Shown: positions 1,429-46,274, numbered from the whole stretch's first letter. The stretch is DNA of 63,969 bases, filler included, from Chrysochromulina tobinii (GCA_001275005.1; 11 parts of 11 records of this genome joined end to end with filler, not necessarily neighbours in it), one strand, 5' to 3'. Notes: a model not told the origin generated them from the sequence alone. Translations and numbers: made by a program.

Positions 1429-4400
1429 TTACTGCATCGTCCTCGGGTCCGTAGACCGGGGGTCGGCGGCCGCCATCGCCGCCCGCGGATCCGCGAGGGC
1501 GGCCTGTGCAGCCCCTGATGTGGCCGCGCCCGCGCCCGCGACGCTGCCATTGTCCTGCCCGGCCTTGAGGCCACCTGGCATGTGTGGTTGGAGTCTCTCA
1601 CGAAGCGCGCGCTGACGCATCTCGTCAGTGCGCTGGTCATTCCACTCCTCGTGCCTAATATGGATGACGACACAGCCAAGGGCTTGGAGCAGGCGTGCCT
1701 TGAGCTGCAGCGCGCCGAGCAGCTGGCCCGTGCTCGTGTAGTCCTTGGCCGCATGCAGCAGGATCGCAAACGTGGGTCCGCCCGTCACGTCGTGCGGTAC
1801 GAGGGCATCGATGACGTATGTGTTGAACACCTTGACGCGGTGGGGTAGCCCAAGTGCCTCGAGCGTAGCAGAGACCTCGAGGAGCGGCTGCGGCGCGCGC
1901 TCGCTCTGCACCTGTGGGGAGAGGGCGCCGTGGTGAGCATTTGCATGCAGAGGGATAGCAGAGAGCTCAAGGAGCGGCGGCGCGCGCTCGCAGCTCACCT
2001 GCAGCTGCACCTGCTGCCACGCGAGCTGCGCCTTTTGGCACAGGAGCGGCGGGAGCACCAGCCCGAGCTCTGGAGGCGCCTCGAGCTGCAGCATGAGCAT
2101 GCACTCGGCGATCCGGCATAGCTGGGCAGGTAACGCGACCCCAGAGGCGGCCTGGCTAATGGCTTGGAGCACAGCGATGGTGAGCCGATGCTCGTAGCAG
2201 CGCAGCGTGAGCAGTGACCACAGGCAGAGTGTGAGGGAGTGCAAGTCAGCATGCTGCGCCGTCTCCGCAATGTCGACGGGCAGCGTCCGGATGGCTTCGC
2301 GTGCCAGCTCTGCGCAGCCCAGCTGTACGAGTGACCAGAGAAGGGTGCCCGCCTCGGCGGGGTCGATGGCGAGGCCTGAGGCGCTCATCAATCGCATGAT
2401 GTCCGCGATCCCGAGCGGCGCCGGAGGCTCCACATGCAGCAGTGCCAAGCCGTGCACCAAGGCGACCGCAGAGTGAGGCAGCAGCTGCTGCACACTGTGG
2501 AGCCGCTCGATGAGGAGCGTGAGGATCGTGGAGGAGCGCCCGTGGTAATGGAGCGCGCCGAGCGCCTCGATGATGGTGCAGGCCTGCGCCTCGTGCAGCA
2601 CCTCGGGCTGCTCGAGCGTCCGAACCAGCTGGGACTCGAGGGCGTCGAGGAGCTTGGGCTCGTCGTACCTGCGCGAGATCAAGGGAGATCAATGGAGATC
2701 AATGGAGATCAAGGGAGATCAAGGGAGATCAAGGAGGAGCTCGGGCTCATCGTACCGCAGCCGCGCCAGACCATCGATCACCTCGGTCAGCATCTGAGGC
2801 ACGAGGACGCCGCCGCTCGTGCTCACGTGGCAGAGCTGCTCGCCGAGCGGCGCGAGCAGAGGCCACGGGCGGCGCATCGGGAGCGAGCCGAGGAGCCGAA
2901 GCGCATCACAGAGCGATTCGGTGGGCTCCGAGCGCGATCTCCGGTCGATCTCGCTGAGCAGCCTCTCTGTGAGGTCGCCTTGGAGCGAGCCGTTCAACTC
3001 GAAGAGGGCCCATGCGGTCTCGACGACCTGCATGCATTGAAGGAGGCACTCAGTGGTAATCAGTGGCATTCAGTGGCACTCAGAGGGCCCATGCGGTTTC
3101 GACGACCTGCGCGAGACGAAGCTGGTTGCGCGTGAGGCGCGCCTCGATCTGGCTGAGCATGCGCGGGAGGAGCGCCGTGTTGGGCCGCTTGAGGCGCGCG
3201 AGCACGTTCATCGTGTCGCACAGCTGCTCGGACGAGATCGAGTCGAGATCGCCGACCAGCAGCAGCAGCTGCTCGATCAACGAAGGGAGCATCATCAGTA
3301 ACGGCGAGTGTGGCGAGAGCTGCTGAAGCGAGGGCAGGTGTCGTACAAAGAGCCAGAGCGCGAGAGAGATCTGCTCGGGCGACAGGCTGCCAGCGAGAGA
3401 GCCTTCGCCTTCAGAGGCCAGCTCCCTCACGATATGCGCCCGAAGCTGCAGCAGTAACGGCTCGGCCAGCGGCATGCGCCGGCAGAGGAGGCGCGCCGTC
3501 GCGAGCAGCTCGGCGAACGAGAGCGGCGCGTGCTCGTGGGCGGCGAGCGCTTGAACGAGCCGCGGCAGCAGCCGCGCGCACGCGGCCGCGCGACCGAGGG
3601 GCACGATGGCGCGGATCAGTTGCGCGACGAGCTTTGCATGGAGCGAGGGCAGCTGTTTGTCGAGCGATCGCATCATGCGCGGGTACGCGGGCGCCTGGGC
3701 GAGGGGCCAAGGGGCCAAGGGTACAGACAGGCAATGAGAGGCAATGAGAGGCAATGAGAGGCAATGAGAGGCAATGAGAGGCCATCAGAGGCCATCAGAG
3801 GCCATCAGCGGTCATCAGAGGCAATCACCTGGGCGAGGCCGAGGGTACAGAACGCCCACAGGCAGTGCGCCGTGTCCGAGGCGGTGAGCGCGTGCAATCT
3901 CGACGCGATCTCCTCGAAGAAGGCCGTGAGGATACGCGTGTCGAGCACCTGAGGGACGAGGCGCCGTGGTGAGCGCGTGCATGCAGGGCCTGGTGAGCGC
4001 GTGCATGCAGGGGCAGGCCATCCGCGGCACTCGACGCACCGAGAGCTCGGCGAGCGCGCACAGGGCCTCGCGCAAGTAGCCGGAGTCGAGCGCGGGCAGA
4101 AAGTCGTGCAGCTTGGCGAGAATCTTGGCGAATTCGGGGCGCGACACGATCGAGGCTGCCCACGACTCTGGATCAGGGCACAGCTGCACCTGGCGCGCGA
4201 GCTTCGAGAGGCCGGTGCACAGCTGGAAGCCGGATACGGGCCGCTCGGTCAGCAGCTGCAGCAGCGCCGCCTCGTTGGTCGCACGCTCGATGTCGAGGCT
4301 GAGGGACTCGGCAAGGTGCGCAGCACGCTCGCGCGCGAGCACGAGCGCAGGCTGCATCGGCCTGCCCAGCTTCTCAAGCTCCGCGAGGCGGCTCGGCAGC

Positions 4401-5391: not shown

Positions 5392-5841
5392 GAACCACGC
5401 ACGCGGCGCGCTCTAACCTCGCGGCCTACCCCTGACAATCGGCTCCACGTGGCCGGCATTTCGCAGACATTGAAAGACGATTTTTCCTCGAACACACTGC
5501 TTGGGAGGCTTGCCGACGCGTGGAGAAACTCGCCGCTCATCGCAGCGCCTTTGCTCCTGTGAGACAAAGGGAGCGTGGCTCCACGCGGCCGGTTCGCGCC
5601 CCGCGGGGCATGCAGTGATTTGCCTCGCGTGACGGCCGCCTCGCGGGAGGACTGAGTGGGGCGGCGTCAGTGGCCACGGCACATCGGCTCATTGGCACTC
5701 CTGCAGCCACCGCAAGCGCAGCGCCGCCCGCACGAGTTGGTGTTGGCACCACGGCGTTTGGAGCCGTCAGCTGACCCTCAACGTTCGCACGATGCTCTCG
5801 GGAATGCGCAGGACTCGCCGCCGCCTAACCCCCTCTGGTGC

Positions 5842-6635: not shown

Positions 6636-9600
6636 ATGGACGTGTTGAACAGCTTGGAGAAGATGGCGCTCGAAGCTGTCGCGATCGAGCTGGTGACTAA
6701 GAGCGTCGACGATGCACTCAGCACCCTCTTCGACAGCGTCGAGCTTGCGCAGCCGGCCGGCATAGCGGAGCAGCAAGCGACTCCGGGGGCTTCAGTAGCC
6801 GAACCTAGCAGTCCTGCCGCCTTGAGCAGTCCGAGTCAGCCTTCCCCGCTCTCACTGTGGAGCAACAACGACTCAGACGCGGCGATGGCGGACATGGCTG
6901 CTCTCGCGACGCACCTCGCTGCGCGACTGGCTCGCTACCTGCTGTTTCTGCGCGCGGCCACCAGTTGGAGAACTGAAGCTCGCTTACCAAAGGGCACCAC
7001 TGGGTACCAGTGGGTGAGCAGTTTCGAAGCCGTTGAGGACCCTGCCAGGATTGAGGAGGCCAAGGCCATCTTGGATCGTTTCGTGCGCAGCGGTGCCGAG
7101 CTCGAGGTGAGCAACTTGCCCACTAGCATCCTCCAGCCGCTGCGCACTGCGCGAGAGATGACGCTGCCGATGTTCGACGAAGCCATTGCTGAAGTCCACG
7201 CCATGCACCGGCGAGACACGTGCCGCCGCTTTCAGGCCGCACGTGCTCTCGAGGCGGCGCGAGCCCTTGGGACGAGTGAAGCGCACTTGCTCGCGCGTCG
7301 AGCCCTGCTAACCGCCGCCGCCGCTGTGATCGGAGCTTCTCCGAGGACGCCCTCGCCCCTTGCACCGCCGCGGCAGCCGGCAGTAGGGCGGCCGGCGGCA
7401 GCGGAGCCGGCGGCATCAGTGGAGCCAGCAGTGGAGGATCCGACGGCAGCGGAGCAGATGGACGAGGAGTTGCCTAATATGGACGAGGAGTTGTCCGCCA
7501 TCCATGAGGCAGCGAGGGCAGCAGCAGCGGAGCCGGCGGTAGTGGAGCTTGCGGCAGCGGAGCAGCTATCCACGCCTGCGCATCCTATCCGCGCTGAGAT
7601 GGACCGGGCAGAACCGAGCATGCCAGTGCCCACCACGGCGCCTCGCCCTGCGATGGACCGCGCACAGGCAGCGGAGCCGGCGGCAATGGAGCCGGCCGCA
7701 ACAGCTTCGGCCGCAGCAGCGCCGGCAACAGCGCATGAGATATGGCTCCGTCGGCAGGCGATCCATCGGGCGGAAGCGCTCGCCGCCGGCATGCTGCCGG
7801 AAGCGCTCATGTCGCCGCCGCCCGCGCCGCCGCCTGTGCCGCCACCTGTGCCGCCGCCCGTTCGACCGCCCGCGCCGCCGCCCGCGCCGCCACCCGCACC
7901 GCCGCCCGTGGCCGCCGGCTCATGTTCCAATTCCAACTTCGTCGACGACCTGCCCACCTCGCCGAACGCCCGACAAACCTTGGCCGTGGAGTGTGACGAA
8001 GCCCAACAAACCTTGGCCGAGGAGCGTGACGACGCCCAAGTGCTCAACGAGAAGAAGAACAGGGCAAGGGAGGACGCTGCAGAGCTTGCCGGAGGCGAGC
8101 CGGCGGTAATGGACCCTTCGGACATCAGGAGAGCAGCAGCGGCAGCGGAGGCAGCGGAGGCAGCGGAGCACGCGTCCACGTCATCCTCCACGCCGGCGCC
8201 TCCCAGAAACGCCGAACCTGCCGCGATCGTGCGGCGAAGCTTCTCCTTCTCTCGCCCTACACGCACTCCCGCGCCCTCCAGTGCCTTACCTGCCACCCCC
8301 GCTGCCAGATCTACTGCGACTGCCGTCGCGGCCACACCTGCCACCAAGTTGTCGAGCGTCGCTCCACGCGGAACGACATTCGTGGCGACGCCACGTCGCT
8401 CCACGAGCTTCGGTGGAGCTGTCGCTAGGACCGTCGGCCGGGCGGCTGCGTTGCCGTTCGTGAGGGCAGAGGCGTTCGTCGAAGGCGCCATGCTCCGCAC
8501 GCTCGCGCGCCGCGAGCAGCGGAAGAGAACCAAAAGCAAGCTCGAGGGCATGGCGGCACTGCGTGGCTTTCACGACGGGCAGCGCGCGCTCTGGATTCAA
8601 TGGAGGCTTCGAGCGGAGTGTCGCACTCTCACGCGCGGCGCTCTCGTCGGGCTCCGGAGGCGCCAGAAGCTGGGCGGGCTGACGCGCTGGTCGGCACGAG
8701 CTGCCCAGCTGCAGCGTGCACGTGATGCTTGGATGCTCATGCGCCAGCCGCGGCTCGCGATCCGCATGCGAGTATGGCGCGTGCACGTTTGCGAAGAACA
8801 TGTGCGGATCTCCCAGGCCGAGCTGGCGGTGCATGCGATGGTACGAGGGCTCATTCGACGCGCCTTTCTCCGCTGGTTCCACAGCCTTCTGCGGTGGCTG
8901 CGCATGGGCAGGATCGCGGCGGCTCCGGAGAGCCAAGATCGCTATCTCCGGCGGAGATATCCGGAGATTGCCCCCGAGGTCCATGAGCGCACGGCGGCGC
9001 GTCACCTGCAGCGGCGCGGCTTGGAGTGGGGCTTCGATCGCTGGGTTCGCCTTGCGGGTGCGTGGCGACGGAATACTGCTCGGAGCTCGCTGGAGCACTG
9101 GCGTGCAGGTGCGCAGGGCGACGCTCTCGCCCTCTGGGCACGAGTCGCCTCGGCGAAACGGCGTGCAGTGCGCCTCGTGCGGCGGGTGCGGCATTCGGCC
9201 ACGTGGCGAGCGATGGTGCACTGGCGCGCGCGCGGCGTTGCGATGGTGGCGTGCAGCCGTTTGATGCGCCGCGCGCATCACTCGGCGACGCGGGGCGCGC
9301 TGGTGCAATGGCTGCATGCCACCGCCGAGAAGCAGCGCGTGCGCCGAGTGCATGCACGCGAGCGGCTCGGCCTCTCCCCACAGGCCAAGCTACACGGGCG
9401 CCGGCGCACGCTCGGGCTTGCCTTCGAAGAATGGCAGCACGTGCACGGGCAGGGCCAGGCGCTGGTCCATATCGGCTTCCGGGCACTCCGGGCGCTGATC
9501 AATGGGAAACGGGCGCGTGCGTGGCGCACGTGGGAGCAGCACGTGCGTCGGCGGCGGGACGAGGCGGCCGTGCTCGCTCTCATTGGGCGCGCGTACTTGC

Positions 9601-11487: not shown

Positions 11488-11519
<32 letters not shown>

Positions 11520-20244: not shown

Positions 20245-20249
20245 GAATG
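19697..20249. repeat. Direct duplication of ~180 nt at a 372-nt offset
   Basis: ~19697-19877 matches ~20069-20249 with a few substitutions. Confidence 0.9.
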
Positions 20250-21459: not shown

Positions 21460-24400
21460 ATGGCGGACTGGCTCAGAGGCGTCGTCGCCGACAAGGTGCT
21501 TCACAAAGTCCTCGGCAAATTCGTCTCCGGCATCGACAAGGACGCTCTCGACCTGGACCTGGGCATGGGAGACATCGCGCTGCACTCTCTGGCGCTCAAT
21601 CTTGAGACGTTTGAGGCGCTCGACCTGCCCTTCCATGTCGCGGGCGGTACGCTCGGCCAGGTGCGGGTCAAGGTGCCGTGGAGAAACATCACCAACGAGC
21701 CCACGAAGATTGTCATCGACCGTGTCTACTTGCTGCTTTCGCCCAAGGACGCGAGCCCGGTCTCGGCAGACGCTCGCGAGGCGGCGGCGGCGGCGGCGAA
21801 GCGCGAGTTTCTTGAGGGGTGGGAGGCGCAGCAGGAGCGCAAGAGGGAGCAAAAGCAAGGCTTCGGCGCTTACGTGGGCGAGCAGGTCGAAAAGCTCGTT
21901 CGCAGCATCCTGCAGAAGCTGCAGGTCTCGATTACGAACGTCCACGTGCGCATACAGCAGGGCGTGGGCGCTGGAGGGGTGGCCGCGGGAGTTTCCGTAC
22001 GCTCGATCCAAGTGACCGACATGGCGCTCGCCGACGCAGGCAGCGCGCGCCATAGTAGCGACACGCACCTGGCCAGCATGCTCGCCCAACTGGTGCGCAA
22101 GTCGGTCCGTATCGAAGGTCTCGCAGTCTACCTCTCGGGCAGCGCATCGGGCGGCGCATCGGGCGGCGCGTCGGGCGGCGCGACGGGCGGCGCGTCGCAC
22201 ACAGACCGCGCGGCGTGGGAGCGGCTGATGGTGCCCATGCTCGAGGCGAGGACCACGCTCCCAGATCACATCTTGCCGCCGCTCGACGTGAAGCTCGAGG
22301 TGGAGTTCAACCAAGCTGATGACCTCTGATGACCTCTGATGACCTCTGATGACCTCTGATGACCTCTGATGACCTCTGATGACCTCTGATGACCTCTGAT
22401 GGCCTCCCTCATCAGGTGGAGTTCGACCCAGCGGGTTCGCTCGACCCGGTGCGTCGTCCATGGCCGAAGCTCGCGCTGCGGGTGGAGGTCGAGGGCACGC
22501 TGGCGGTGCGCATGCGACGTGCGCAGCTTGGCTGGCTGCTCGAGCTCGTCGAGACCATCGCGCGCATGGAGCGTCGCCATCGCTTCCTCCGCTGCAGACG
22601 ACCAGTGGTGCCGCCGCGAGCGAGCAATGCGGCGGCGTGGTGGGCGTACGCGGTGCGCGCGGTCATCTCGAAACGCTCTGATGACCTCTGATGACCTCTG
22701 ATGACCTCTGATGACCTGTGATGACCTCTGATGACCTCTGATGACCTCTGATGACCTCTGATGACCTCTGATGACCTCTGATGACCTCCGATGGCCTCCC
22801 TCATCAGGTGCGCGCGGTCATCTCGAATGCTCGTGAGGATAGCACCGCGGTCACCTGGTATGAGCTGACGCGCCGTCGTGAGCAGCGCCTCGCGTACGTG
22901 CGCGCGTACGGCGCCTACTGGCAAAAGGGCTCCGGCGGCGGCCGGGCGGCGGCGCTCGAGGCGCTCGAGTCCAAGATGAGCCTCGAGCTATGCATGCGCT
23001 ACCGCGAGCTCACGCGGGTCGTGGGGGCGAGCTTGCCTGGGCGCTGGTGGGAGGCGCCGTCGTGGGCGCGAGCGGGCGCCGAGGAGGCGTCGTCGTGGGC
23101 GCTCTTGCTCCCGCCGCTCACGGTGGCCAGTGGCGCGGGTGCGGGCGCGCCACCACCGGAGAAGAAGGGCGGCTTTGACTGGTTCGGACTGTTCAAGCCG
23201 ATTGAGGACGAGGAGGGTGCGGATGGCGGTGGCGCGCGCGGCGCGGGGGCAGCTCAGGGAACTCTGAGCAGCGCCGCCGCTTCGAGCGTTGCTTCGAGCG
23301 GCGCCACTGGCGGCGGCTCGGCGAGATACAATCTCGGAGATGGCGGCGGCTCGGCGGCCCTTGACGACGCGTTGCGCCGTCAGGTGCGCGCGCGCTATAG
23401 CCTGGGCGAGCGCGCTGAGCTGCCCGAGACGGCGCTCCAGAAGCTGCTCGATGAGATCATCGAGGGCGAAGCGCTGGCAGTGGCCGACCTCGATGGGAAG
23501 CCTCTCGCCGCCTTTGCAGACTATGTCCAGACCGAGGTGGCGGCGAGCCTCGGCGCCCTCTCGGCGACGCTGCTCGCGAGCTCCACGAGTGTGCTCGCGG
23601 TGGCCGAGATTGTATCTCCGAAGGTGAGCCTCAAGCAGCGCACTTACCGCAAGGGGCTCGGGCTGCAGGCGCGCGTGGGCGCATTACGGCTCATCGACCG
23701 GCTCACGCCCTGTGCGCCGCTAGCGTGCGCGCTCACGGGCGAGCGGCGCGGAGGCCAAGACTGGCTGGTCTTGAGCCTCGACACGGAGCCTCTGCATTCG
23801 GATGCAGCGATGCACTTACAGGTGGCCATGCAACCGCTGATTACGTCCCTCATCACGTGTGCTCCAGCATGCAACCGCCGCATGCAAGTGCTCACCCCGG
23901 CGCCCTCCTCCCCACAGGTGGCCATGCAACCGCTGCATGCGACCCTCAACCCGCGACTGCTCGCCGCGTGCGGTGCGTGGTTCCAGGTGCCCCCCTCCCA
24001 GTGGTCCGCCGCCATCGAGCTCGAAAAGGTGACGCGCGGCCTGCTGGTCAATCTCGTGGGCGCGATACGGGAGATTGCCATGCGCACCTGGCGCAATCGG
24101 CCGGTGCACCTGGGCGTGTTCATCAGCACGCTGACCGTCTTCTGGGTACAGCCGCCCCCTCTTCGAGCCGATGCGAGCCCTTCTTCTCTGACGAAGTTGA
24201 CGAGGCCGACGAGGCCGACGAAGCCGCGGTCGGACGCGCTCGCGCTGCATGGGCTGGAATTGCACTGCGAGGGCATCTTGCTCTCTTCGGAGGAGGCGGT
24301 TCGGTCCGACGCGGACACCGTGCCGAAGAGATGGAACGACGACGCCGATGCCGGCCTTGTGGGGGGGGCGGCTCCCGTCCACTCGGAACAGGCGTTTGGC

Positions 24401-27400
24401 CTCTCGCTAAGTGGGCTGCGCCTGAGCTTGCTCCCGGCGGCGCAATGCGTGGCATGGCTGGCGGACCCGGTCGGCGCGGTGGCGTGCGCGACGCCGCTGA
24501 CTCATCCGCTCAATGCACAGCTCACGCTGGCGGTGCTGCTCCAACCTATGGGCGTGGAGGTGCCGTGGGTTCGTGCGCAACTCGCGATCGATCCGGTGCG
24601 GTTGCGAGTGCACGAGGGGTCCCTCGCCGCTCTGACGACGCTCGCGGTGGGCAGCGGCCAAGCCCTTGATCCTGCTGGCGAGGGCGGTATGATGTTGCCG
24701 GGCTCTGAGGACGAGACGCCCAACGCGCGCGCGGATGAGCGCGGGCTGGGCGCCGTCGGGGAGACGCCCATGGGTTGGTTCTCAATCCAGCGTAGCCAGG
24801 AGGTGCAGGGGCGCGTGGATGCGCAGCTGCTGGGCGACTGCCACGTGTCACTCGAGCTCGGCTACCTCGTGTACGAGATGCAGCAGCGCGAAGGCGAGAG
24901 CTCGATCGCGAAGATCAAGCTCAAGGACTATGAGGTGCGGGGTGGGCCGACGCCCGAGTCCTTCCAACTCTGCTCGACTTTCCAAGCCTTAGGGGTGTTC
25001 AGCTGCGAGACGTACACGCTGGTGGCCGAGTCGCGCTCGCTCTCGACGCGCTTCCAGTCGGCGTGCGCTGCGATGCAAGCTCTCTCGCGGGCCGAGGCGC
25101 CGGTCGTGAAGAAGAAGAAGAAGAAGAAGCCCCGCGCCGCCGATGCTCTCGGCTTCATGGCCGCGGAGCGCCAGAACCGGCTTGTGCTCGACGCGCGTAT
25201 CGGCGGCTTGTTTGTCGAGCTGCTGCCCGACAGCGTGGGCGGTGGCGCGGCGCGCTCGAGCTCGGCAGCGCTCGTCTCGTGTGCGCTTCGTGAGCTGCGC
25301 GCGCACCTCGTGCTTCGGAAGCGCGATGTGCGCTGCGCTGTGCAACTAGAGTCTGCGGACTTGCAGATCGCCGTGCGCGAGCCTCAGCTCGTCTCGACGC
25401 CAGCACACCGGCCTCCGACCTCGATCCTCGTGCCACTCATCTACATCGTGCCCTCGGCGGCGGCGGTGGCAGCGCAGAGGCGAGGTGACGCCGGCATGGA
25501 GGGCGTGCTGATGTCCTCTGATGTCCTCCGATGTCCTCTGATATCCTTTGTTGCCCTCTTGAGTGCCTCCATCATCAGGCGACACCGACGCCGAAGGCGC
25601 GGTCCAGCTCGACCTACTGCTTGCGACCGAGGGCTCGCCAGAGTACCCGTCGGTGGCCGCGCAGCTCAAGCTCACGGCTCAGCTCGGAGGGTTGCGAGTG
25701 CACCTGGCGGCCGACTCGCTCTCGGCTGTAGGCGAGCTGATCGTGCGAAGCCGAGGGCTCATCGACCGGGCAGCGGCGGCGGTGGCGCGCTCGGCCGAGT
25801 CGCCGCGCACGCCCAAGCCCGCGCCCTCGGTGGCCGCGGCGCTGGGCGCCGCGTCGGGTGCTTCGACCGAGCCGCGGGCGTCGGCTCCAGCTGTGGCCTC
25901 TGGGCTCTTGGACGAGAAGCCGTTGAGGAGCCGGGACGACGCCCGGGACGACGCCTCGCTCGCAGCGCCCGCAGCGGCGGACGCCCGGGACGACGCCTCC
26001 GCCGCGGCCCACGCTGCGAGCGCCGTGGCGAGCGCCAAGCCCGTCCTGGCGATCGAGGCCTACGTAGGGTACTTGTACGTGGTGCTCCATGAAGAGCCCC
26101 CAGCGCACATTGCGGGGCTTGGGCCGATGGGCGCCGCGTTGGGCGCCGCCGTCGCCGGCCTGGCTGACCTGAAGCTCGAGCGGCTCGAAGCGACGCTGCT
26201 GCTCGAGCTCGACACGATGCAGATCGACGCGCACGTGCATGGCCTCGGGCTGACGGTGCGCGATGGCCTGGGTAAGGCGCCGCTGGTGGTGATCAGCACG
26301 CTGCATAAAGGCGTCCGGGCCGCCGGCGAGGCTGCCAATCCGTCGCCGCCGCCCCGAGAGGTGAGTCTCACCTTGGCCTCGCTCGCCGACCTCTCGGATA
26401 CCGCCGAGCACCGTGACGGGCGCTGTGCCGAGCACCGACTGGACCGCATGGCGAGCGCCGTGTCGAGCGCCTCCTCACGGCAAGGGAGCGAGCTCGCGGC
26501 GAGATCGACGCGCTCGCTGCAGCGCCAAGAGAGCATCGCCAGTGCGCAGAGCGAGGTGGGCGCGGACGTGCCGACAGTCACCTTCTCCCTCGCGGGGGTG
26601 GCGCCCGGTGATGAGCCAGTCGATGATGCGTACGGATATGAGGACGGGGGGGCGGAGGACGTGGAGGAGCTCTCTCTCCTTGAGAACGTTGGCGAAGCTT
26701 CGGAGCTGCGCGGAGATGCGTCCGAGCTGCGCGGAGATGCGTCCGAGCTGCGCGGAGATGCGTCCAAGCACAAGCTGCTCACGTTTGCGATGAGCCTGTG
26801 GGACGAGAAGAGCGAGCGCCATCCCGGGTACGACTCGGAGATCTCGCTCGAGCTCGCGCCTGATTGCCTCCCTCATTGCATGCTGATTGCCTCCCTCATC
26901 AGGTACGACTCGGAGATCTCGCTCGAGCTCGCGCCCACGCGTATCTTTGGTCCGTTGCCCGTGGTGCGCCGGCTGCAACTCTGCTTCATGAAGGTCCTCG
27001 ACGCATTGACCAAAGGGCTCCTTGACAGGCTCGGTGAGCAGGCGGCGGTGGCCGCATCGGCGCTGGCGGCCGAGGGGTTGCGTCAGGTGGCCGCGGAGCA
27101 AAAGGGGTCCGGCGCCAAGCTCCGCATCATGGCGCACGGCCCACTCATCATCCTGCCGTCGGCGACGGTGCCCGGCACAGCGCTCGTCGTGCGAATGGCC
27201 GACATCCTCTTCACGAACGCCTCCGACGGCGCGGTCCACCTCGAGCGCGCCCGCGCCGCCTCGGCCTCGGGCCTCGGGCCTCGGGCCTCGGGCCGGCCAG
27301 CAGCGGCCTTCGAGCGGCTGCGCGTCTCCCTCGAGAAGACGTCCATCTTCGTCGCGTCGTCGTTGAGCGATCTCGAGCGCCATCTCGACGAGGAGATCGC

Positions 27401-30400
27401 GCTGGAGGCGAGCGGCCCGCAGCCGCACTGGCTCGTGCACGACCTCAAAGTGACTCTCCTGCTCGAGAAGCAAATGATCGGCGGCGGCGGCGACGACGGC
27501 GCAGCCAGCGGCGCGGCGCAGGGAGCCGAGCCGTTGGTTGAGCTCACCCTCGGGCTCGAGCTCTCGGAGATACAAATCTCGATTGCGACCTCGGAGTGCG
27601 CCTTCGCCTCGCTCCTGGCACAAGAGGCCATGGCCGTCTTCGTGGACGCAGAGCCCCACACCGACGAAACCGACAGGGCCGACCAGCTCGAGCGCGCCTC
27701 GACCCATATTAGGAACGATCCGCTCGGGACGGCGCCGACGAGCGAGGCGGCGGGAGGTGGCGGTGCCCGGGACGGCGCGACCGAAGCGGAGCAGCTCGAC
27801 GACGACGACGACGACGCGGAGGCAGGGAGCGCGGCGGTCGGTGGGAAGCCGAGTGGCCGTTACGTCGGCAGCCGCAGCGGGCCGAGGGCGCCCACGACGG
27901 CGCCCCCGAGCACCGATCCGAGCTTGGGGGTCACGAAGATGGTCTTCAACGGCAAGATCGAGTGCGCTGGTGGTGTGCAGCTGGAGCTGATCGACGACTC
28001 GCAGGGCAGCTTGATGCCCATCCTCGAGCTCGGAGTCGATGAGGTCGCGGGCAGCTGGACGCTCGTCAACGACATGGTCAACGGCGAGGTGGTCGCGCTC
28101 AAGGACGCCATCGTGCAACTCACGTTCGGAGCTCACGCCTCCCTGCTCAATACGAGCCACGGTGAGTGGGAACCTCTGATGGCCTCTGATTGCCTCCCTC
28201 ATTGCATGCAAGTGAGTCTGCTCAACACGAGCCACGGTGAGTGGGAACCTCTGATGGCCTCTGATGGCCTCTGATGGCCTCTGATGGCCGCTGATGGCCT
28301 CTGATGGCCTCTGATGGCCTCTGATGGGCCTCTGATGGGCCTCTGATGGGCCTCTGATGGGCCTCTGATGGGCCTCTGATGGCCTCCCTCATTGCGGGCA
28401 GGAGAGTGGGAGCCCGTCCTAGAGCCTTGGCACATCGGGCTCCAGGTCAGCAAGCTGCAGGCAGTGGCCGAGGAGCTCGACGAGGAGGCGGCGCTCGCGA
28501 CGGCGCCTGCGCCTAATAAGGGTGCCTCGGGCAAGCCGCCCACGACGGCGCCGGTACGTTCCGCCCCGAAAGTGCTCGACGAGTTCCATATTAGGATCGG
28601 CTCTAAGGAGTCGTTGGAGCTCAACTTGTCACCCGCGTTCATGAGCTCCGCGCATGCACTGCTACATGTCGTCACGGTCGCGTTGGAGGCGACGAGTGCG
28701 CAGAGCGAGGCAGCACTCCTCGCACTTCGTCGCTCGATGGGCACCGTCACGGCCAACAGCGTCGCCGTGCGCAACTGCACCGAGCTACCGATGGCCATCG
28801 CCATGTCGTCACGGGCCTTCGAGGCGCCGCGCGCCATCGCACCGGGCGCTGAGGTGACCCTGGTCGACGAAGGGGTGCCGGCGTACGAGGCCTTTAGTCA
28901 GCGCTCAAGCCTGTTCGCCGAGACGACCGAGAATCTCGACTTTGTGTACGCGGCGCTGCCCTTGATTACCATTGATTACCATTGATTACCATTGATTACC
29001 ATTGATTACCATTGATTACCATTGATTACCATTGATTACCATTAATTACCATGGATTGCCTCGACTTTGTGTACGCGGCGCGCCACAATCAACTGGAGCC
29101 CTTCATCGAGCATGCAAGTGCTCACCACGGCGCCCTCTCCCCACAGGTACGCGGCGCGCTACAATCAACTGGAGCTCTTCATCGAGCTGCTCGAACGCCA
29201 TGCAAACCTGAACTCGTACGACGCCAAGCGGCGCACCGCGTTGCACGCGGCGGTCAAGCACCGTCATCATACGATCGTGCGATTGCTGCTGCGCGCCGGC
29301 GCGTCGGTCAACGTGCCAACGCTCGATGGCGCGATGACGACGCCGCTCCACCTTGCCGCCATGTCGGGCAACCTGGAGATGGCGCGATTGCTGCTCGAGG
29401 CACACGCAGACCCCGCCCTCACCAACTCGGATGGCGAGAACACGGCGGGCGTGGCGGCAGGACACGTCGAGGTCCAACGGCTCCTGTACGCGCCGCCGCC
29501 CGCGCTTCGTCAGGGAGCTGCATGCGAGTGCTCACCACGGCGCCCTGTCTGTCACCGCCGCCGCCCGCGCTTCGTCAGGGAGCTGCATGCGAGTGCTCAC
29601 CACGGCGCCCTCTCTCCTCCCCACAGGTACATGCATCTCGCCGATGAGGCCAAGGGCTCGGGAGTCCGATTTCCGTCTGCGGCGCTCGTCGTGGCGGCGG
29701 CGCGCGGCGACCTTGCCACCGCCCAACGGCTACTTCGCGTGCGTCTGATTGCGTCTGATTGCGTCTGAGTGCGTCTGATTGCCACCGCCCAACGGCTGCT
29801 TCGCGTGCGTGTGATTGCGTCTGAGTGCGCCTGAGTGCGTCTGATTGCGTCTGATTGCGATGCATGCAGGTGCGCGCCGAGCCAAACTCGTCTGATTGCG
29901 TCTGATTGCGTCTGATTGCGATGCATGCAGGTGCGCGCCGAGCCAAACTCGACCGATGGCTCGCATACGGCGCTCTGCCGCGCGTGTGAGAACCAGAGGT
30001 ACGAGCTCGTCACGATCCTTCTCGAGCACGGCGCTCGGGCCAGCGACATCGCGCCGAGCGGCACCACCGCGCTGCACTGCGCGGCCCGCGCGGGCCCCAA
30101 GCGGCTCGTCACGCATCTCATCGAGGCGAAGGCAGACCCGTTGCGCGCGCACACGGCCGAGGGCACCCTGCCCGTCGAGATGGTCAATTGGCGACTGGGC
30201 GTCGGCACGAGCGAAGCGACGGCGGTGCACGAGGTGCTGTGCAGCGCGTCCCTCAGCAAGGCCGAGTGCTCGGGGTTTCTGACGAAGCTGGGCGGCGAGC
30301 GGCTGAGCTGGAAGCGGCGCTTCTGCATCGTGCCGACGGCCAAGTCTGACGAACTCCAGCTGCGCTACTTCGCGGACGAGAAGCTCACTAGCCTGTACGG

Positions 30401-33400
30401 CGCCATCGACCTGCGCCAACTGCTGCCGAGCGCGATCCGAACGCCCTCGCATAGCGAGATGGTCGCGCGTGGGCAGCCGGCGGACGTGCCGCGCTCGTTT
30501 GACATCATCGCCTCTGGGCGCGTGTACGTCTTCAAGGCGGACTCGAAGGCCATGTGCGACCATTGGGTGGCGCGACTCCAGATCCTCTTGGGCCACGCCG
30601 CGGCTGTGGCGTTCGATGCGATGTCGGTGGTGAGCGAAGCGTCGACGCCGTCGCGAGCCCCTGGGCGCCGTCCCGAGCCCTTCGACTCCGTCTCCAGCGC
30701 CGTGTCGAGCGCCTCGCTGCGGAGCCACGCCGCGAGCGCGGCCGCGAGCGCGAGCGGTGGCGCCGCGCCGAGCGCGAGCTTCACACGCCAAGGAGGGATC
30801 AAGGAGGGCGGCCGCTCCTTGATGAGGAAGATCATGAACCGCGTGACCGACACCGAGCCCGTGCACGAGGGGCAGCACACCTCGCACGGCGTGACGGCCG
30901 TTGGATCGGACGAGGTGGAAGCGGCGGACGCGGACGAGGGGGCGCACTCGACGTCACTCACCCTCTTCGTGGGCGAGGCCGCAGCGCAGGCCACTTCTGA
31001 GGACGCTCAAGCTTCTGTCGGGCAGGCGGCTGGCGAGGTGGGCCTCCTCTGCTTCGACCGCACTGCAGCCCCTGCCTTGCATGCATGTGCTCACCACGGC
31101 GCCCCGTCCCTTCCCCACAGGCGGGCCTACTCTGCTTCGAACCTTTGGAGGGGCTACGCGTCCACGCACTGCACACGTCGCTGCACCTGCTCCAGCCCAT
31201 CGCGACCACCAAGATGAAGCGCGGCGCCAAGCGTGGCTCAGCGCTGGGGGTCGTCGTCGAAGTCGCGCTGCTCAATGGCGTGCGCACTATGTCCATTCGA
31301 TCGGCAGTCAGCCTGCTCAATGGCACCGAGGTGCCAGTCGAGATGGCGGCGCGCGCGCGACGCTCGCCCAGCATGCAAGTGCTCACCACGGCGCCCCACC
31401 CTTCCCCTTTTCCACAGGTGCCAGTCGAGATGTCGGCGCCGCAGCCGCAGTCGGCCGCGCTCGCCGAGCTGTCGACGTATTGCGTCGCCCCGAACTGCGC
31501 GCAGGCCGTGCCGCTGCTCTTGACGAGCCGCGGCGCGGAGGCAGCGATCTGGTCGATCCGACTGCGCCCTATGCCGGGAGGTCCAGGCGCGACTGAGGTG
31601 CACTGCCGCCACGCTGCCCCCAAGGATGCTGAGCATGCAAGTGCTCACCACGGCGCCTTGCTCCCTGGTCCACAGGTGCATGCCGCCACGCTGCTCCCGC
31701 CCACGCTCTTCTCGCGCGACATGTCGGTCACCTCCGTCGACGACGCATTGCTCGTGTGTCCGCCCATCGAGCGCACCGGCTCGCCCTGGGCGGCGTGCGT
31801 CGTCATCGGGTACGAGTACGAGAGTGTCGGCACGCACCGCGCAGATGCGCCGGGGGCGCGCAAGGGCGCAGGGGGGGGGCGTGTTCAAAAAGGGCAAGGC
31901 GGGCAGCGCCGGCTCACGCGGGCGCGGCGCCGACGGCCGGCTCCGGCAGCAGAGCGTCGAGATTGTGCGCAGATTCCGACTTCCCGCCACCGAGCTGCTG
32001 CTGCACCAATGGAGCTGTGTCGTGCCGATCGTCGGTGGCTCACAGCGCGGCAAGCTGTGCCTCACCACGCACTTCTTCTGCTGGTATACGCTGCACGGAG
32101 TGCACCACGACGGCGTGCTGCTGGCGAGCAAGGTGGCTCGGGTGGCCGCGCAGTCGGGAGTGCTCAACGGCTCGGATGGGCTCGAGTTGCATCTCGGCCA
32201 TCTCGGGGTCCGACTTGCCTTTTCGGGCTTTGAGTACCGCGACGAGTCGTTACGTCAGATCCAGGCCTGGCATGCCAGGACGCGTGAGGACCTGAGCACG
32301 GAGGGTGCAGCCGCGTGGCTCCCGCACTCGCTGCGCCTCGTGCCGCCGATGAGCGTCTCCAATCTGCTGCCGTGCGCCCTCCGGCTGACGATCCGCGCAC
32401 TGCCGTTGAGCTCGGCGAAGGCGAACGAGCTCGGGTGGCCCGTCCTCCCGAGCGTGATGTACGGCGATGCGAGCGCCGTACCGGGCGCGCCCGGGGGGCC
32501 GCCACCGGTTGAGATGCGACTCGAGCCGGGCAAGAGTGCGTGCTCGCACGACGTGTGCGTGCTCGGGCCGATTGAGATTGCCATCGAGATCGGCGCCGCT
32601 GACGAGACATGCAGCGGCGTGCTGCAGCTCGCCCGGCCTCACGACCGTCTCAAGGAGAGCCACATCGTGACACTCAGCTCGAGCAAGCCGCGGCCCGCGG
32701 GCGGCCAGACGCTGCGGCTGCAGTGCCGGCTCAAGCCAACCTCACGCGCGGGCAGCGTCGAGCTCGCCGTGTACACGCTCCATGCCATCCTGAACCGCTC
32801 GTCGCTGCCGTTGCGCCTGTACGACACGGCGCTCCGTGCGGACCCTTTGCCCGTCGTCGAGGCGCCCGCGATGGCGCTCGAAGGGATCCCATTCTCGCTC
32901 GAGGAGGGGCGGGTGCTCGAGACGGCGCTGGCGGCGGCGCGCGGCCGCTCGGGCGGCTCGTGCCGCATCGGGGTGGGATCGGACACGGATGTGATCACCG
33001 GTATGGTCGACTACACAGAGCGCATCTCTGATGGACGGCTGAGCAAGGCCTTCTCGATCAGCGTGACGGGCAACGAAGGCGAGCTCGAGGTGAGCACGGG
33101 AAAAGGTCAGCGCGCGGAGCTCGTCGTGTCGGTCAATGCGGCCAAGGGCGCCGCCGCCGCTCTGGGCACTTGTGTGGTGGAGGTGCACGATCGGTTCATG
33201 ATCCATAACCGGACGCTGCAGCACATCGAGCTGATGCAGTGGGCGGGCGACGCATCGAGCACGGCCGCGGAGATCAAGCAGGCGATCACCGGCGCGGCGC
33301 GCGAAGCACGCGAAGCGATGCGGGAGAAGCTCGGCTTCGTCAAGAGCGACAGCCAAGCTTCGGCCGCGAGCGTCTACGAGCTGCCGCCCGGTGGGCAAGC

Positions 33401-36395
33401 GCCCATCAAATGGCATTCGGGCGACGAAGGTCGTCGCTTCGTCGCGTTGCGGAGTAGCAAGGGCTTTCGGATGTATGACTGGTGCGCGCGAGCCCAGCTC
33501 GTCCTCGTGCATGCAAGTGCTCACCACGGCGCCCCCCCACCCCTCTTCCCCACAGGTGCGAGGCCGAGCGCATGCGTTCCGAGCTCGAGCATGCAAGTGC
33601 TCACCACGGCGCCCCCCCACCCTCTTCCCCACAGGTGCGAGCCTTTCTCCCCCGTGAGCACGGGCGAGATCATCCTCAAGTGCCGCGCGCTCAATGACGC
33701 GACGGGCGCCTCGGGCGGCAGCGCTCGGCAGGACGGCAGTGCGCCCCTCTACCTGCGCCTCAACGTGTCCATGGTCGGACCACGCCGTCTGATTGCGCCT
33801 GAGTGCGTCTGATTGCGTCTGATTGCGTCTGATTGCGTCTGATTGCGTCTGATTGCGATGCATGCAGGTCGGTCCACGCCGGCTCCTGGTCCTCCGTCCC
33901 GCGCTCAACGTGCAGGGGCAGCTGCGCCTGCCGTACCGCGTGACGAATCGGACGCCGTATCTGCTCGCCTTTTGCCAGCGCGGCTCGGAGCAGCTGCAGG
34001 AGCACTGGGACCTGCTCGGTGCGGGCGAGGCATGCGAGTACACGTGGGACCGTCCGGGGGGCGACAGATGCCTCGCGGTCCTCGCGCGCGACGCGGCAGG
34101 GGCGTGGCACGGCGAGGCCAGCGTCACGTCCGCCGCCACGTGTGCGCCGTACTCGATTGAGAAGATCTCGGAGAAGCTCGCGCCGCTCAAGATCGTCAAG
34201 AGCCGTGCGCTTGGCGGCGCCGATGCGGTCGCACGCACGAAGAGCTATGGCGCTGCTCAACACGGCGCTGCTGGGGTCGAAGCCGCAGGAAGCATGAGGG
34301 TCAGCGCCGGTGCCGCGGCGGATAAAGTGCTTGGCAGCGCCGGTGCCGCGGCGGATAAAGTGCTTGGCAGCGCCGGTGCCGCGGCGGATAAAGTGCTCGG
34401 CAGCGCCGGTGCCGCGGCGGATAAAGTGCTTGGCAGCGCCGGTGCCGCGGCGGATAAAGTGCTTGGCAGCGCCGGTGCCGCGGCGGATAAAGTGCTCGGC
34501 AGCGCCGGTGCCGCGGCGGATAAAGTGCTTGGCAGCGCCGGTGCCGCGGCCGGCAGCGTGCTAGGCGACGCACGTGCTGCGGCCGGGAGCGTCCTCGGCA
34601 GCGCCAAGGCGGCGGCCGGCAACGTGCTCGACAGCGGCATGGGCGCGGCAGGCAACGTCCTCGAGCGCGCGGGCTCCGCGACGGGCAGCGTGCTGGGACG
34701 GGAGGGCTCCGCCAAGGAGGTCCTGGTCACACCGTCGGACAAGCTGTTCACACCGTCGGACAAGCCATCGCCAGTGGAACGGTACCAATCTGCTAAGGAA
34801 CTCCTGGCGGCCACTTCGCCGCCCCCCGACGAGACGGTCCTTCTGAGCGCGAGCTGCCTGCTCTGGGCGGGTGGCCAGTGCTGGGCCAAGGGCTGGCTCT
34901 GTGTCACGCAGAGCTCGCTCACGTTCCTGGCGTTTTCAGAGGCCCAGATGGCGGCAGCGCTCGCGGCCAATAGCGTCGCCGCCAAGGCGGCCCGCGAAGG
35001 GCCAGGTTCGTCAGGTTCGTCAGGTTCGTCCAAAAAGGCGAGCGCGGCCGACGCGACCGGCGCGGAGGCGCCGCTGCCCATCAGTGCGCTCCCGCTGCCG
35101 CTCGGGTCGATCCTCTCCATCAGCCCGGGCGTGCGGCCCGGACAGCTGCTGATCAAAGTGCGCGCTCCCGTCAGGGCCTCGGACGAGGGGGGCGGTGGTG
35201 CAGGGGAGGATGGCGGCGGCCGCGGCGCAGGAGGCGGCGTCGGCGTCGGTGGCGGCAGCAGTGGGGAAGTCAAGGGCAGCAGTGGGGTAGTCGAGCAAGC
35301 CATCGTGCTGGGCTCGCTGCGCACGGCGCAGAAGACGTTGCAGCGGCTGCTCGCGCTCATCGGCTCCCATCGCGCTGCCCAAACTGCCGTCGCAGCGATG
35401 GCCCGGGTGCGTCTGCAGATGGCGTCCGCCGCACGGGATCGACTCGCGCACGGGATCAAGGGGGTGCTCCAGAAAGTCAAGAGCCGGGCCCGTGAGGAGG
35501 GCGTCGTGGCGGGCGGCTCGGCGCCGACCGTGCAGACTCCTTCAGAGGGTCGTCCCGATGAGGAGAGAGCGCCCACCACGACGCGCGTGGATCGGCGCGC
35601 GGGCGTCGTCGTGGTGGGCGCGGGCTTGGACGTCTGTAACGGCTTCTACCGGTACGTGCCCGAGCGCGCGCGCTCAGCGGTGCTCAAGGCCCTCGCCTCC
35701 GGCAAGCCCCTCTTCCGCAACGCCGACGGCGCGTGCATTCACTGGAGCGACACCGACTGGACGCGCAAGAAGGGCTACCCCGCGGGCGTGGGTTGTTGGG
35801 GCGTGGGGTATGACGACCATCATCGGTACATGGCGCGCGGCGACTCGCTACTGCCGCCCGAGACCGGCTGGGTCGTGCGCTATGGGACCGCCGCCAGCGG
35901 GCCGCTCGGCGTCGCACCGGCACCGACCCTCGACCTTGCGCGTATGGTCGAGCTGCGTCTCGCATGGGCGAATGGTCGAGCGGACTCGCTCATCCAGGCT
36001 CAATCAGACGAGGGGTGCGCTCGCTGCTCCTCCAAATATCCCGTGACGGCCACTGATTGCCACTGATTGCCACTAATGGCCACTGATGGCCACTGATGGC
36101 CACTGATGGCCACCGATGGCCACTGATGGCCACTGATGGCCACTGATGGCCACTGATTGCCTATGATTGCAACTGATTGCCACTGATGGCTCCTCCAAAA
36201 TGTCCCGTGATGGCCTGCCTGATGACCTCTCTCATCAGGTACGCTCTACTCATCCAGAAGACTCATCGCGCGCGCCTTGCACGCCGCAAGCTCGCGGAGG
36301 CTGTGCGCCTCGCCAAGCAGCCAGCGAGCGCCGTGGCGAGCGCGACAGCGGCGGAGGCGGCGGCGGCGGCTCTCGCTGGAGGAGGCGCCGCCCCC
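21460..36395 (+). CDS. VPS13: VPS13-family lipid transfer protein, 16 exons seen, ~4,300 aa, 3'-truncated by the contig end
   Basis: Chorein_N (VLGKFV...[12 protein letters not shown]...IDRVYLL), [22 protein letters not shown]-type repeats (NRSSLPL, YRVTNRT, EYTWD). All 15 introns keep frame given one extra G at 31871-31879. Confidence 0.93.
22300..22415 (+). other. VPS13 intron 1 (116 nt): echo plus CTGATGACCT array plus CTCCCTCATCAG
   Basis: GTGGAGTTCAACCAAGC vs exon GTGGAGTTCGACCCAGC. Confidence 0.9.
22653..22807 (+). other. VPS13 intron 2 (155 nt): 20-nt echo plus CTGATGACCT array
   Basis: GTGCGCGCGGTCATCTCGAA is repeated after CATCAG. Confidence 0.9.
23822..23917 (+). other. VPS13 intron 3 (96 nt, in frame): echo, decayed acceptor, cassette A
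   Basis: GTGGCCATGCAACCGCTG echo; internal CCCTCATCAC; ends CCCCACAG. Confidence 0.85.
25485..25578 (+). other. VPS13 intron 4 (94 nt): diverged echo plus CTGATGTCCT array
   Basis: GTGACGCCGGC vs exon GCGACACCGAC; ends CATCATCAG; restores frame. Confidence 0.85.
26828..26902 (+). other. VPS13 intron 5 (75 nt, in frame): perfect 33-nt echo
   Basis: GTACGACTCGGAGATCTCGCTCGAGCTCGCGCC is identical at 26828 and 26903. Confidence 0.88.
28162..28401 (+). other. VPS13 intron 6 (240 nt): nested duplication with 10- and 11-nt arrays
   Basis: Splicing restores [11 protein letters not shown]; an internal second copy of exon end plus donor lies at ~28218-28250. Confidence 0.88.
28946..29146 (+). other. 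VPS13 intron 7 (201 nt): TTGATTACCA array, junction copy, cassette A
   Basis: Two layers of echo; restores [14 protein letters not shown]. Confidence 0.87.
29486..29626 (+). other. VPS13 intron 8 (141 nt, in frame): two tandem cassette A units
   Basis: GTACGC...CCCCACAG|GTAC; internal 65-nt duplication. Confidence 0.8.
29739..29930 (+). other. VPS13 intron 9 (192 nt): three CTGATTGCGT arrays, internal CAG|GT at 29869
   Basis: Contains copies of both flanking exons; restores ankyrin sequence LLRVRAEPN. Confidence 0.87.
31038..31120 (+). other. VPS13 intron 10 (83 nt): echo plus cassette A
   Basis: GTGGGCCTCCTCTGCTTCGA vs exon GCGGGCCTACTCTGCTTCGA. Confidence 0.88.
31331..31417 (+). other. 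VPS13 intron 11 (87 nt, in frame): echo plus cassette A
   Basis: GTGCCAGTCGAGATGGCGGCGC vs exon GTGCCAGTCGAGATGTCGGCGC. Confidence 0.85.
31598..31675 (+). other. VPS13 intron 12 (78 nt, in frame): echo plus cassette A
   Basis: GTGCACTGCCGCCACGCTGC vs exon GTGCATGCCGCCACGCTGC. Confidence 0.85.
33482..33634 (+). other. VPS13 intron 13 (153 nt, in frame): two complete cassette A units separated by CAG|GT at 33555
   Basis: Restores DWCEPFSP. Confidence 0.85.
33774..33867 (+). other. VPS13 intron 14 (94 nt): echo plus CTGATTGCGT array plus TGCATGCAG
   Basis: GTCGGACCACGCCG vs exon GTCGGTCCACGCCG. Confidence 0.9.
34303..34698 (+). repeat. Coding 33-nt tandem repeat (11-aa unit [11 protein letters not shown]): 7 near-perfect plus 5 diverged copies
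   Basis: Visible in DNA and in ORF 33853..36066. Confidence 0.92.
36015..36238 (+). other. VPS13 intron 15 (224 nt): diverged echo plus CTGATGGCCA array
   Basis: Ends CTCTCATCAG; restores [13 protein letters not shown]. Confidence 0.85.
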
Positions 36396-46266: not shown

Positions 46267-46274
46267 TTTCCCAA

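What the first reader, a model, noticed from the sequence alone, without database searches (positions are those of the whole stretch)
1912..33634. Constant ~37-nt acceptor cassette A reused about 11 times
SEEN: GCATGCAAGTGCTCACCACGGCGCC, usually followed by a pyrimidine tract and CACAG, occurs at 1912 and 3949 (minus strand) and at 23880, 29110, 29520, 29585, 31079, 31371, 31633, 33509 and 33589. It is always sense to the host gene and nearly always at the intron 3' end, with unrelated sequence 5' of it. Conservation extends far beyond a normal branch point (GCTCAC) plus AG. INFERENCE: the cassette is copied from a common template. A fixed 3' end with a ragged 5' end is what reverse transcription from the 3' end of an intron RNA would leave.
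Basis: partly seen in the sequence, partly recalled or inferred. Interest (0 to 1): 0.75.

Follow-up and report, generated by a model that had tools for sequence, protein, structure and literature searches.

The report
New introns from duplication plus patch
In this alga many introns consist of a roughly 25-base copy of the next exon's start plus a shared 25-base branch cassette and acceptor, one such intron is present in one assembly and absent at the same site in another, and they are likely made when a staggered DNA break is patched with sequence copied from another intron, which would be an ongoing way of gaining introns without a classical transposon.

Summary
The cassette is real: 11 copies in 9 introns, plus a diverged twelfth; none expected by chance. 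Only 25 nt are constant, and the sequence 5' of it is not unrelated: it copies the start of the next exon (106 of 158 non-redundant acceptor sites; control 1 of 142; median about 25 nt), supplying the GT donor. RNA contigs confirm splicing of two cassette introns. One clean empty site shows an 81-nt gain: a perfect 33-nt duplication plus cassette. The 3' end is not always fixed: donor-bearing, acceptor-less, in-frame exonic and five antisense copies exist, junctions show 2-5 nt microhomology, and unrelated genes share 24-75 nt of donor-specific sequence. Two other intron families have the same anatomy. Best reading: staggered breaks are patched by microhomology-primed copying from other introns, and splicing selects the survivors; DNA versus RNA template is unresolved, and a strong sense bias remains unexplained. 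It works like introners that co-opt a splice site but lacks whole-length similarity, inverted ends or a fixed target duplication. Ten paper searches found no description in haptophytes. The scan noted one similar intron before on other DNA (e1-9728496).

The parts
1912..1998 (-). Cassette-A intron (87 nt, predicted): about 30-nt gapped copy of next exon start, core at 1924-1948, acceptor
   Evidence: not RNA-tested
3949..4039 (-). Cassette-A intron (predicted donor 4039, read by eye): short exon copy, partial core then full core at 3960-3984
   Evidence: not RNA-tested
7524..7667 (+). Probable old twelfth copy: 25-33-nt duplication, diverged core at 7618-7642, 144-nt unit in an open frame (intron or in-frame insert)
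21460..36395 (+). Host gene, VPS13-like (VPS13_N, ankyrin, PH, VAB domains), 15 introns: 7 with cassette A, 6 of family B, 2 of family C; cut by the contig end
   Evidence: acceptors picked by eye, donors by script
23822..23917 (+). Cassette-A intron: first 18 nt copy the next exon; core 23880-23904
   Evidence: GT..AG joint in RNA contigs of X1, X2, X5
28946..29146 (+). Cassette-A intron with nested repeat array; 39-nt exon copy at 29071-29109 (2 mismatches) abuts core 29110-29134 with 2-nt microhomology
29486..29626 (+). Cassette-A intron with two cores (29520, 29585) in a local tandem repeat sharing one variant; only 4 nt of exon copy
   Evidence: donor predicted
31038..31120 (+). Cassette-A intron: 20-nt exon copy, core 31079-31103
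31331..31417 (+). Cassette-A intron: 22-nt exon copy, core 31371-31395
31598..31675 (+). Cassette-A intron: 24-nt exon copy with one indel, core 31633-31657 (script chose donor 31600; 31598 preferred because of a probable 1-nt assembly indel near 31870)
33482..33634 (+). Double cassette-A intron (cores 33509, 33589), removed as one 153-nt unit
   Evidence: GT..AG joint in RNA contigs of X1, X2, X5
26828..26902 (+). Family-B intron with the same anatomy (exon copy plus a different 3' cassette)
   Evidence: RNA joint in X1, X2, X5
33774..33867 (+). Family-C intron with exon copy; absent from contigs of X16 and X18 that keep the neighbouring cassette-A intron end (probable empty site)

Best explanation
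These introns are a 10-45-nt duplication of the target exon with a piece of another intron's 3' region inserted between the two copies, and they are likely made when a staggered DNA break is repaired by microhomology-primed copying from an existing intron, after which selection likely keeps mainly the events that can be spliced out. Shown: the duplication, splicing of two such introns, one exact empty site, junction microhomology, copies lacking the acceptor or carrying their own donor, antisense and in-frame copies, and sequence shared between introns of unrelated genes. Inferred: two nicks about 25 nt apart leave single-stranded ends; an end pairs by 2-5 nt with the start of the core (or with the GT-starting bases that follow a donor intron's acceptor), copies 40-80 nt and rejoins; because the return point tends to begin GT(A/G)C, the upstream copy of the duplication supplies a donor and the patch supplies branch site and acceptor, so the mRNA is unchanged. 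Every new intron can serve as donor in turn, so the cassette propagates itself. The enzyme (theta-type repair polymerase or a reverse transcriptase) and the template (DNA or pre-mRNA) are not identified; the branch role of the core's GCTCAC is predicted, not mapped.
For: Duplication: 106 of 158 non-redundant acceptor sites, 97 of 146 without tandem units, 28 of 52 cores not selected by the scan; controls 1 of 142 and 1 of 474; copy begins GT or GC in 109 of 117; lengths spread from 9 to 44 nt with no fixed size. Empty site: L051 holds an 81-nt intron = perfect 33-nt duplication + 6 nt + core + tract; L007 and L025 hold one copy of the 33-mer with identical 30-nt flanks. L070 versus L030: duplication plus only the last 10-14 nt of the acceptor. 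Microhomology of 2 nt or more at the duplication-core junction in 8 of 12 non-tandem zero-filler cases versus 14% background (p 5e-5) and at the core's right end in 9 of 18. Acceptor-less cores flanked by a duplication in 40 of 58 (control 13 of 168); 9 of 13 non-spliceable units are multiples of 3 (p 0.009). Antisense cores in L030, L049, L086 (host strand by Pfam), L047 and L111 (by frame and neighbouring introns). Unrelated genes share pre-core sequence: about 75 nt L010/L124, 53 nt L041/L044, 24 nt L024/L037. Families B (33 of 70; control 0 of 136) and C (10 of 19; control 1 of 32) show the same duplication. [quoted passage not shown]
Against: Modules within 150 nt of each other are on the same strand in 82 of 82 cases, and 86 of 91 at 150-500 nt; a strand-blind process should leave antisense patches inside introns unless nested modules come from one event or later local duplication, so a transcription link is possible. 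Why intron ends are captured so often is not explained; the test for bias (187 of 291 duplication inserts carry a family motif versus 31% background) is redundant and drawn from loci chosen for the core. 52 of 158 acceptor sites show no scoring duplication (3 of 9 in the window). Apart from a few pairs, 5' filler and tract are not linked, and the tract is not copied from nearby sequence. Only one clean cassette-A empty site was found among 7 orthologous pairs, 6 of which were aligned. All loci are short-read metagenome assemblies, probably of one species.
Confidence: 0.55

Rival explanations
1. Target-primed reverse transcription: a non-LTR retroelement enzyme acting in trans copies intron or pre-mRNA from near its 3' end into a staggered cut, leaving a variable target duplication and 5' truncation.
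For: Variable-length duplication, 5'-junction microhomology, an acceptor-only insert (L070), graded 5' extensions into a longer donor-bearing version, strong sense bias. Non-LTR-derived introners exist (about 5% of classified families, PMC12130899, passage).
Against: Copies truncated at the 3' end or at both ends need internal priming; no poly(A) or simple tail; full-acceptor copies are essentially never antisense (37 of 38 confident calls sense) whereas acceptor-less ones are; 5' edge is sharp; an excised lariat would block copying at the predicted branch site inside the core (established knowledge); L010/L124 share sequence that crosses an acceptor. No partner enzyme could be sought.
Confidence: 0.25
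2. A dedicated polymerase carrying its own short template RNA (telomerase-like) extends broken ends, stuttering to give the 10-nt arrays of families B and C and adding the core.
For: One donor-bearing version joins the 10-nt repeat seed to the core; iterated duplication-plus-piece units in L077; very constant core; pieces of the core occur alone 20 times exactly in 270 kb versus 0 in 6 Markov simulations.
Against: Several different 5' extensions and locus-specific shared segments point to many donors; no stable fold (z -0.9 to +1.4 for 5 copies) and no Rfam family; arrays also differ between orthologous alleles, as slippage would give.
Confidence: 0.08
3. Reverse splicing of excised introns into other mRNAs followed by reverse transcription and recombination (introner-like elements of fungi and Micromonas).
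For: Sense bias; exon 1 ends in AG in 50 of 117 cases; 11 of 106 units sit directly behind an existing acceptor.
Against: Predicts whole-intron copies, no long duplication and no antisense or in-frame exonic copies; all three fail.
Confidence: 0.05
4. A non-autonomous DNA transposon (MITE-type introner) that carries the acceptor and co-opts the donor from its target duplication.
For: Splice-site co-option from target duplications is documented (PMC9860276, passages); short palindromes bound the core.
Against: Duplication length varies from 9 to 44 nt against 3-9 bp in that paper; no terminal inverted repeats in family A; element ends are not fixed.
Confidence: 0.04
5. The motif is this species' extended branch-site or U2AF consensus, reached independently in each intron.
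For: Position 26-45 nt from the acceptor suits a branch site; the 5' half is kept in acceptor-bearing copies, which suggests function.
Against: 8 of 15 introns in the same gene lack it and two of those are shown spliced; it appears whole at an empty site and in exons and antisense.
Confidence: 0.03

Closest known systems
Introners that co-opt a splice site from the target-site duplication (Gozashti 2022, PMC9860276; 2025, PMC12130899)
   Same: Many recent, sequence-related introns at unrelated sites; one splice site carried, the other taken from a duplication; families reported in marine Chrysochromulina MAGs and three small ones in Emiliania huxleyi, one noted 'co-opt 5', carry 3'' with 10-bp terminal direct repeats and unknown class (5 copies).
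   Different: Duplication is about 25 nt and variable rather than 3-9 bp; about half the intron is locus-specific; no fixed ends or inverted repeats; mirror, acceptor-less and antisense forms coexist. Chrysochromulina tobinii is listed with 0 introner families, as expected if a whole-intron similarity search misses this anatomy (that the window is this species is not established).
[quoted passage not shown]
   Same: Polymorphic new introns with a direct repeat of the adjacent exon end, ascribed to staggered breaks; internal repeats from repeated rounds.
   Different: Daphnia repeats are 4-12 bp and the inserts are mostly of unknown, unshared origin; here the insert is a genome-wide shared cassette traceable to other introns.
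Tandem genomic duplication of an AGGT-containing exon segment (review PMC3443670)
   Same: Exon duplication supplies splice sites; a minority of cases here take both sites from the duplication (L049, L036, L065).
   Different: Here a foreign patch supplying branch site and usually the acceptor sits between the copies.
Non-LTR retrotransposon and SINE insertion by target-primed reverse transcription (features recalled)
   Same: Variable target duplication, 5' junction microhomology, either orientation.
   Different: No tail, no constant 3' end, no known partner enzyme, 25-60 nt length.
Polymerase theta-mediated end joining with templated insertions (PMC11081867 passages)
   Same: Tandem duplications plus templated inserts at staggered breaks; short microhomologies.
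   Different: Usually local or random templates; not known as a genome-wide source of introns.

Membership tests
Introner | Many related introns at unrelated genomic sites | tested here: met
   234 distinct core sites in 132 loci plus the window
Introner | Similarity along most of the intron length | tested here: not met
   Shared part is 25 nt plus about 8 nt of a median 77-nt intron; tract 144 forms of 158; only a donor-bearing minority shares about 54 nt
Introner | Recent gain with empty orthologous site | tested here: met
   L051 versus L007/L025; one case for family A
Introner | Spliced out precisely | tested here: met
   RNA joints for 2 of 9 window cassette introns; only 15 of 161 joints were displayed
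DNA-transposon (MITE) introner | Fixed short target duplication | tested here: not met
   9-44 nt, one outlier 80
DNA-transposon (MITE) introner | Terminal inverted repeats and fixed ends | tested here: not met
   By inspection; ends truncated on either side
Non-LTR/SINE retroposition | Variable-length target duplication | tested here: met
Non-LTR/SINE retroposition | Constant 3' end with tail, truncation only at 5' | tested here: not met
   62 of 234 cores lack a called acceptor (some are missed calls or inner tandem cores); donor-bearing copies have ragged 3' ends
Non-LTR/SINE retroposition | Partner reverse transcriptase and RNA intermediate | not testable with these tools
   No genome held
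Reverse-splicing introner-like element | No target duplication, strictly sense, whole intron copied | tested here: not met
Break-repair intron gain (Daphnia type) | Direct repeat of adjacent exon at the far intron end | tested here: met
   106 of 158, longer than the 4-12 bp reported
Break-repair intron gain (Daphnia type) | Dependence on an end-joining pathway | not testable with these tools
   Needs genetics; a family-A polymerase gene with best hit Pol nu is present in L030, which shows nothing about its role
Tandem genomic duplication | Both splice sites from the duplication, no foreign insert | tested here: not met
   Foreign core always present by construction of the set; both-sites cases are a minority
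Extended branch/U2 consensus | Present in all introns | tested here: not met
   Absent from 8 of 15 introns of the host gene
Extended branch/U2 consensus | Extended pairing with this species' U2 snRNA; mapped branch point | not testable with these tools
   No U2 sequence or lariat reads available

The most novel reading that the evidence does not exclude
A transposon-free, self-propagating intron factory: the cell's own break repair copies 3' ends of existing introns into 25-nt staggered breaks, and because the return microhomology is the GT-starting exon edge, each sense event automatically creates a perfect intron and a new donor. It builds most introns of this alga (15 of 15 in the host gene belong to such families), is active within the species today, and also explains the stranded 10-nt intron repeats of haptophytes.
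Probability: 0.35. Interest if true: 0.9.

Novelty: new variant of a known kind. Interest (0 to 1): 0.74.

Why it matters
Where new spliceosomal introns come from is a long-standing question, and most gains have no traceable source. Here gains are numerous, polymorphic within a species that appears in cultures, and keep a readable footprint (duplication, junction microhomology, donor-specific sequence), so the mechanism can be tested directly. The anatomy is invisible to searches that need whole-intron similarity, so similar systems may have been missed elsewhere. It also inserts short peptides into proteins and, through the duplicated exon edges, can mislead spliced-read alignment and gene annotation.

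Tried and rejected
Whole genome: none held, so no copy count, master locus, U2 or enzyme search. Viral contigs: one hit on a 4.5-kb, 8%-complete record, likely host DNA; no evidence of viral carriage. RNA structure and Rfam: nothing. Idea that the two copies of the duplication come from different alleles: 14 of 38 mismatches synonymous versus 25% expected, p 0.07, not supported. Idea that the variable tract is copied from just upstream: not supported (mean match 3.74 versus 3.81 shuffled; a slight excess with the next exon, 4.01 versus 3.84). Hammerhead or box C/D reading of family-B ends: considered from recalled motifs, dropped (no Rfam match in 4 loci). Second read-laying found no empty site for the cassette-A intron at 33482; runs X15-X18 have no recorded library type, so the missing family-C intron is a probable, not proven, empty site, and their 2-3 unlisted differences just after that junction are unexplained. 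Taxon: nearest named relatives are Prymnesium parvum proteins (61% eIF1, 66% myosin of a related locus), so haptophyte; genus Chrysochromulina is only a guess. The Emiliania huxleyi genome paper, recalled as noting stranded 10-11-bp intron repeats, was not held and two searches did not retrieve the statement. Earlier-findings look-ups by sequence and place gave nothing.

Full report
Observation. The 25-mer occurs 12 times in the window with up to 3 mismatches; 100 shuffles gave none. Nine are in a VPS13-like gene. With 15 acceptors picked by eye and donors chosen by script, the gene reads 4,292 codons without a stop (partly by construction). RNA contigs of three metatranscriptome runs skip 23822-23917, 26828-26902 and 33482-33634 at GT..AG, and two of them skip 33774-33867 (only 15 of 161 joints were shown). 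The donor ranked first by exon duplication was the RNA donor in three of these four and second in the fourth. Seven of the 15 introns carry the core; six end in a different cassette (B) and two in a third (C). The nearest named proteins are from the haptophyte Prymnesium parvum; no genome is held.

The missed feature. A scan of metagenome contigs gave 131 loci with the exact core (about 1,300 stretches estimated), probably re-assemblies of one species from cultures and environmental samples. They and the window hold 234 distinct core sites; 160 had a called acceptor and enough flank, 62 no called acceptor, 12 short flanks. After dropping redundant loci, 106 of 158 acceptor sites carry, upstream of the core, a copy of the start of the next exon; using exon sequence 60 nt further on as query gives 1 of 142. 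The copy has median length about 25 nt, 5% mismatch, and starts GT or GC in 109 of 117. Introns are short (median 77 nt) with 27-48 nt between donor and core in most. The tract after the core has 144 forms among 158 sites. Families B and C show the same duplication (33 of 70 and 10 of 19; controls 0 of 136 and 1 of 32).

Recent gain. All-against-all comparison gave seven orthologous pairs that are not identical; six were aligned. L051 has an 81-nt cassette intron that L007 and L025 lack: a perfect 33-nt duplication, 6 nt, core, tract and AG, with identical 30-nt flanks. L070 has a duplication plus only the last 10-14 nt of the acceptor relative to L030; L057 has a 94-nt family-B insert with a 38-nt duplication relative to L024; L012 and L007 have extra tandem intron copies. 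Contigs of X16 and X18 keep the end of the cassette intron at 33634 yet lack the family-C intron beside it; their library type is not recorded, so this is only a probable empty site.

Ends are not fixed. A longer version starts with its own donor and runs into the core (for example L006:2010-2063); there the 3' end is ragged and the acceptor comes from a duplication of the upstream exon end (L036, L073, L077, L101). Mapped on this version, 26 of 40 unselected acceptor-bearing copies begin at the core's first two bases, 10 slightly upstream and 4 inside: sharp, not a drop-off ladder. Of 58 acceptor-less cores 40 are followed by a copy of upstream sequence (control 13 of 168). Of 28 acceptor-less last cores listed, 13 have a scoring duplication and no evident splice route, and 9 of those 13 units are multiples of three, several in open frames. 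Four of the 28, plus L049, are antisense to the host gene (host strand by Pfam for L030, L049, L086). By contrast spliced junctions score best on the sense strand in 71 of 83 (37 of 38 confident; calibration 151 of 164 on training exons). The core's 3' half also occurs alone 20 times exactly and 59 times with one mismatch in 270 kb, against 0 and 0-5 in six Markov simulations.

Junctions and donors. Where the duplication abuts the core, the exon continuation matches the core's first 2-3 bases in 8 of 12 non-tandem cases (background 14%); at the right end 9 of 18 show 2-5 nt (alignment choice may inflate this). Introns of unrelated genes share locus-specific sequence next to the core: about 75 nt in L010/L124, 53 nt in L041/L044, 24 nt plus the tract start in L024/L037. 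This is what copying from many existing introns would leave.

Mechanism. Shown: duplication, splicing, gain, microhomology, both orientations, many donors. Inferred: a staggered break is patched by priming on another intron, and splicing filters the outcome, which makes the survivors look 3'-fixed and sense. [quoted passage not shown] Against a strand-blind version: neighbouring modules within 150 nt are same-strand in 82 of 82, which needs single-event nesting or a transcription link; and the preference for intron templates is unexplained. Target-primed reverse transcription on pre-mRNA remains the main rival (0.25). No RNA fold or Rfam family was found; U2 pairing and branch point could not be tested.

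Comparison. Introners with splice sites co-opted from 3-9 bp duplications are known, including marine Chrysochromulina families (PMC9860276: passages; supplement places 1-32 and 41-70 of 214 in a file cut when stored; family sequences were not visible, so overlap with those families is not excluded). A later survey lists 0 families for C. tobinii and three small ones for E. huxleyi, one with 10-bp terminal direct repeats (PMC12130899: passages; supplement rows; 2 of 14 files not searched). Daphnia neointrons have 4-12 bp boundary repeats and mostly unknown sources (PMC4202315, passages). A review lists tandem duplication and break repair as separate routes (PMC3443670, passages). The C. tobin genome paper mentions introns once, without this feature (PMC4580454, passages); PMC12480563 and PMC3152781 passages held nothing relevant. 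Ten searches found no description of this anatomy in haptophytes; subscription papers are not covered, and the E. huxleyi genome paper (recalled as noting stranded 10-11-bp intron repeats) was not held.

Verdict. A real, active family of duplication-plus-patch introns: a new variant joining two known routes of intron gain at genome scale. Interest 0.74.

Noticed in passing
window 22300-22415, 22653-22807, 25485-25578, 26828-26902, 28162-28401, 36015-36238, 29700-29930, 33774-33867, and on the minus strand near 2670, 3030, 3740, 4490, 41410, 59650-60600: Introns of families B and C hold stuttered 10-nt arrays with a constant 3' end and the same exon duplication; the 10-nt seed also lies in the donor-bearing version of cassette A.
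   Followed up: partly
window 31870-31880: Probable 1-nt assembly indel in a G run: reading frame shifts here and an RNA contig of X2 shows one gap in this stretch.
   Followed up: partly
window 44180-44225 and 46264-46372: 5-nt tandem arrays just upstream of two minus-strand reading frames; the same 5-mer array occurs inside an intron in L010.
   Followed up: no
window 47300-47870 and 52950-53530: Two palindrome-rich non-coding elements with inverted arrangement, MITE-like in look.
   Followed up: no
window 60350-60607: Three tandem copies of about 80 nt each containing an intron end plus exon start.
   Followed up: no
window 34300-34550: Seven near-perfect 33-nt in-frame tandem repeats in a VPS13-like exon, the same length class as the intron duplications.
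   Followed up: no
L030:1240-2300 (minus strand): Family-A DNA polymerase gene, best structure hit Pol nu; an antisense core supplies its apparent stop codon.
   Followed up: partly
L005:1500-2400, L006:1500, L111:128, L047:630, L086: The core is translated in frame, sense or antisense, adding short peptides to low-complexity protein regions.
   Followed up: partly
window 33774-33791 versus 33868-33885: The three differences between intron copy and exon copy are all synonymous; other runs show 2-3 unlisted differences just after this junction, as if the exon copy were the changed one.
   Followed up: partly
L043:2330-2800: Array of short inverted and direct repeats unrelated to the intron families.
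   Followed up: no
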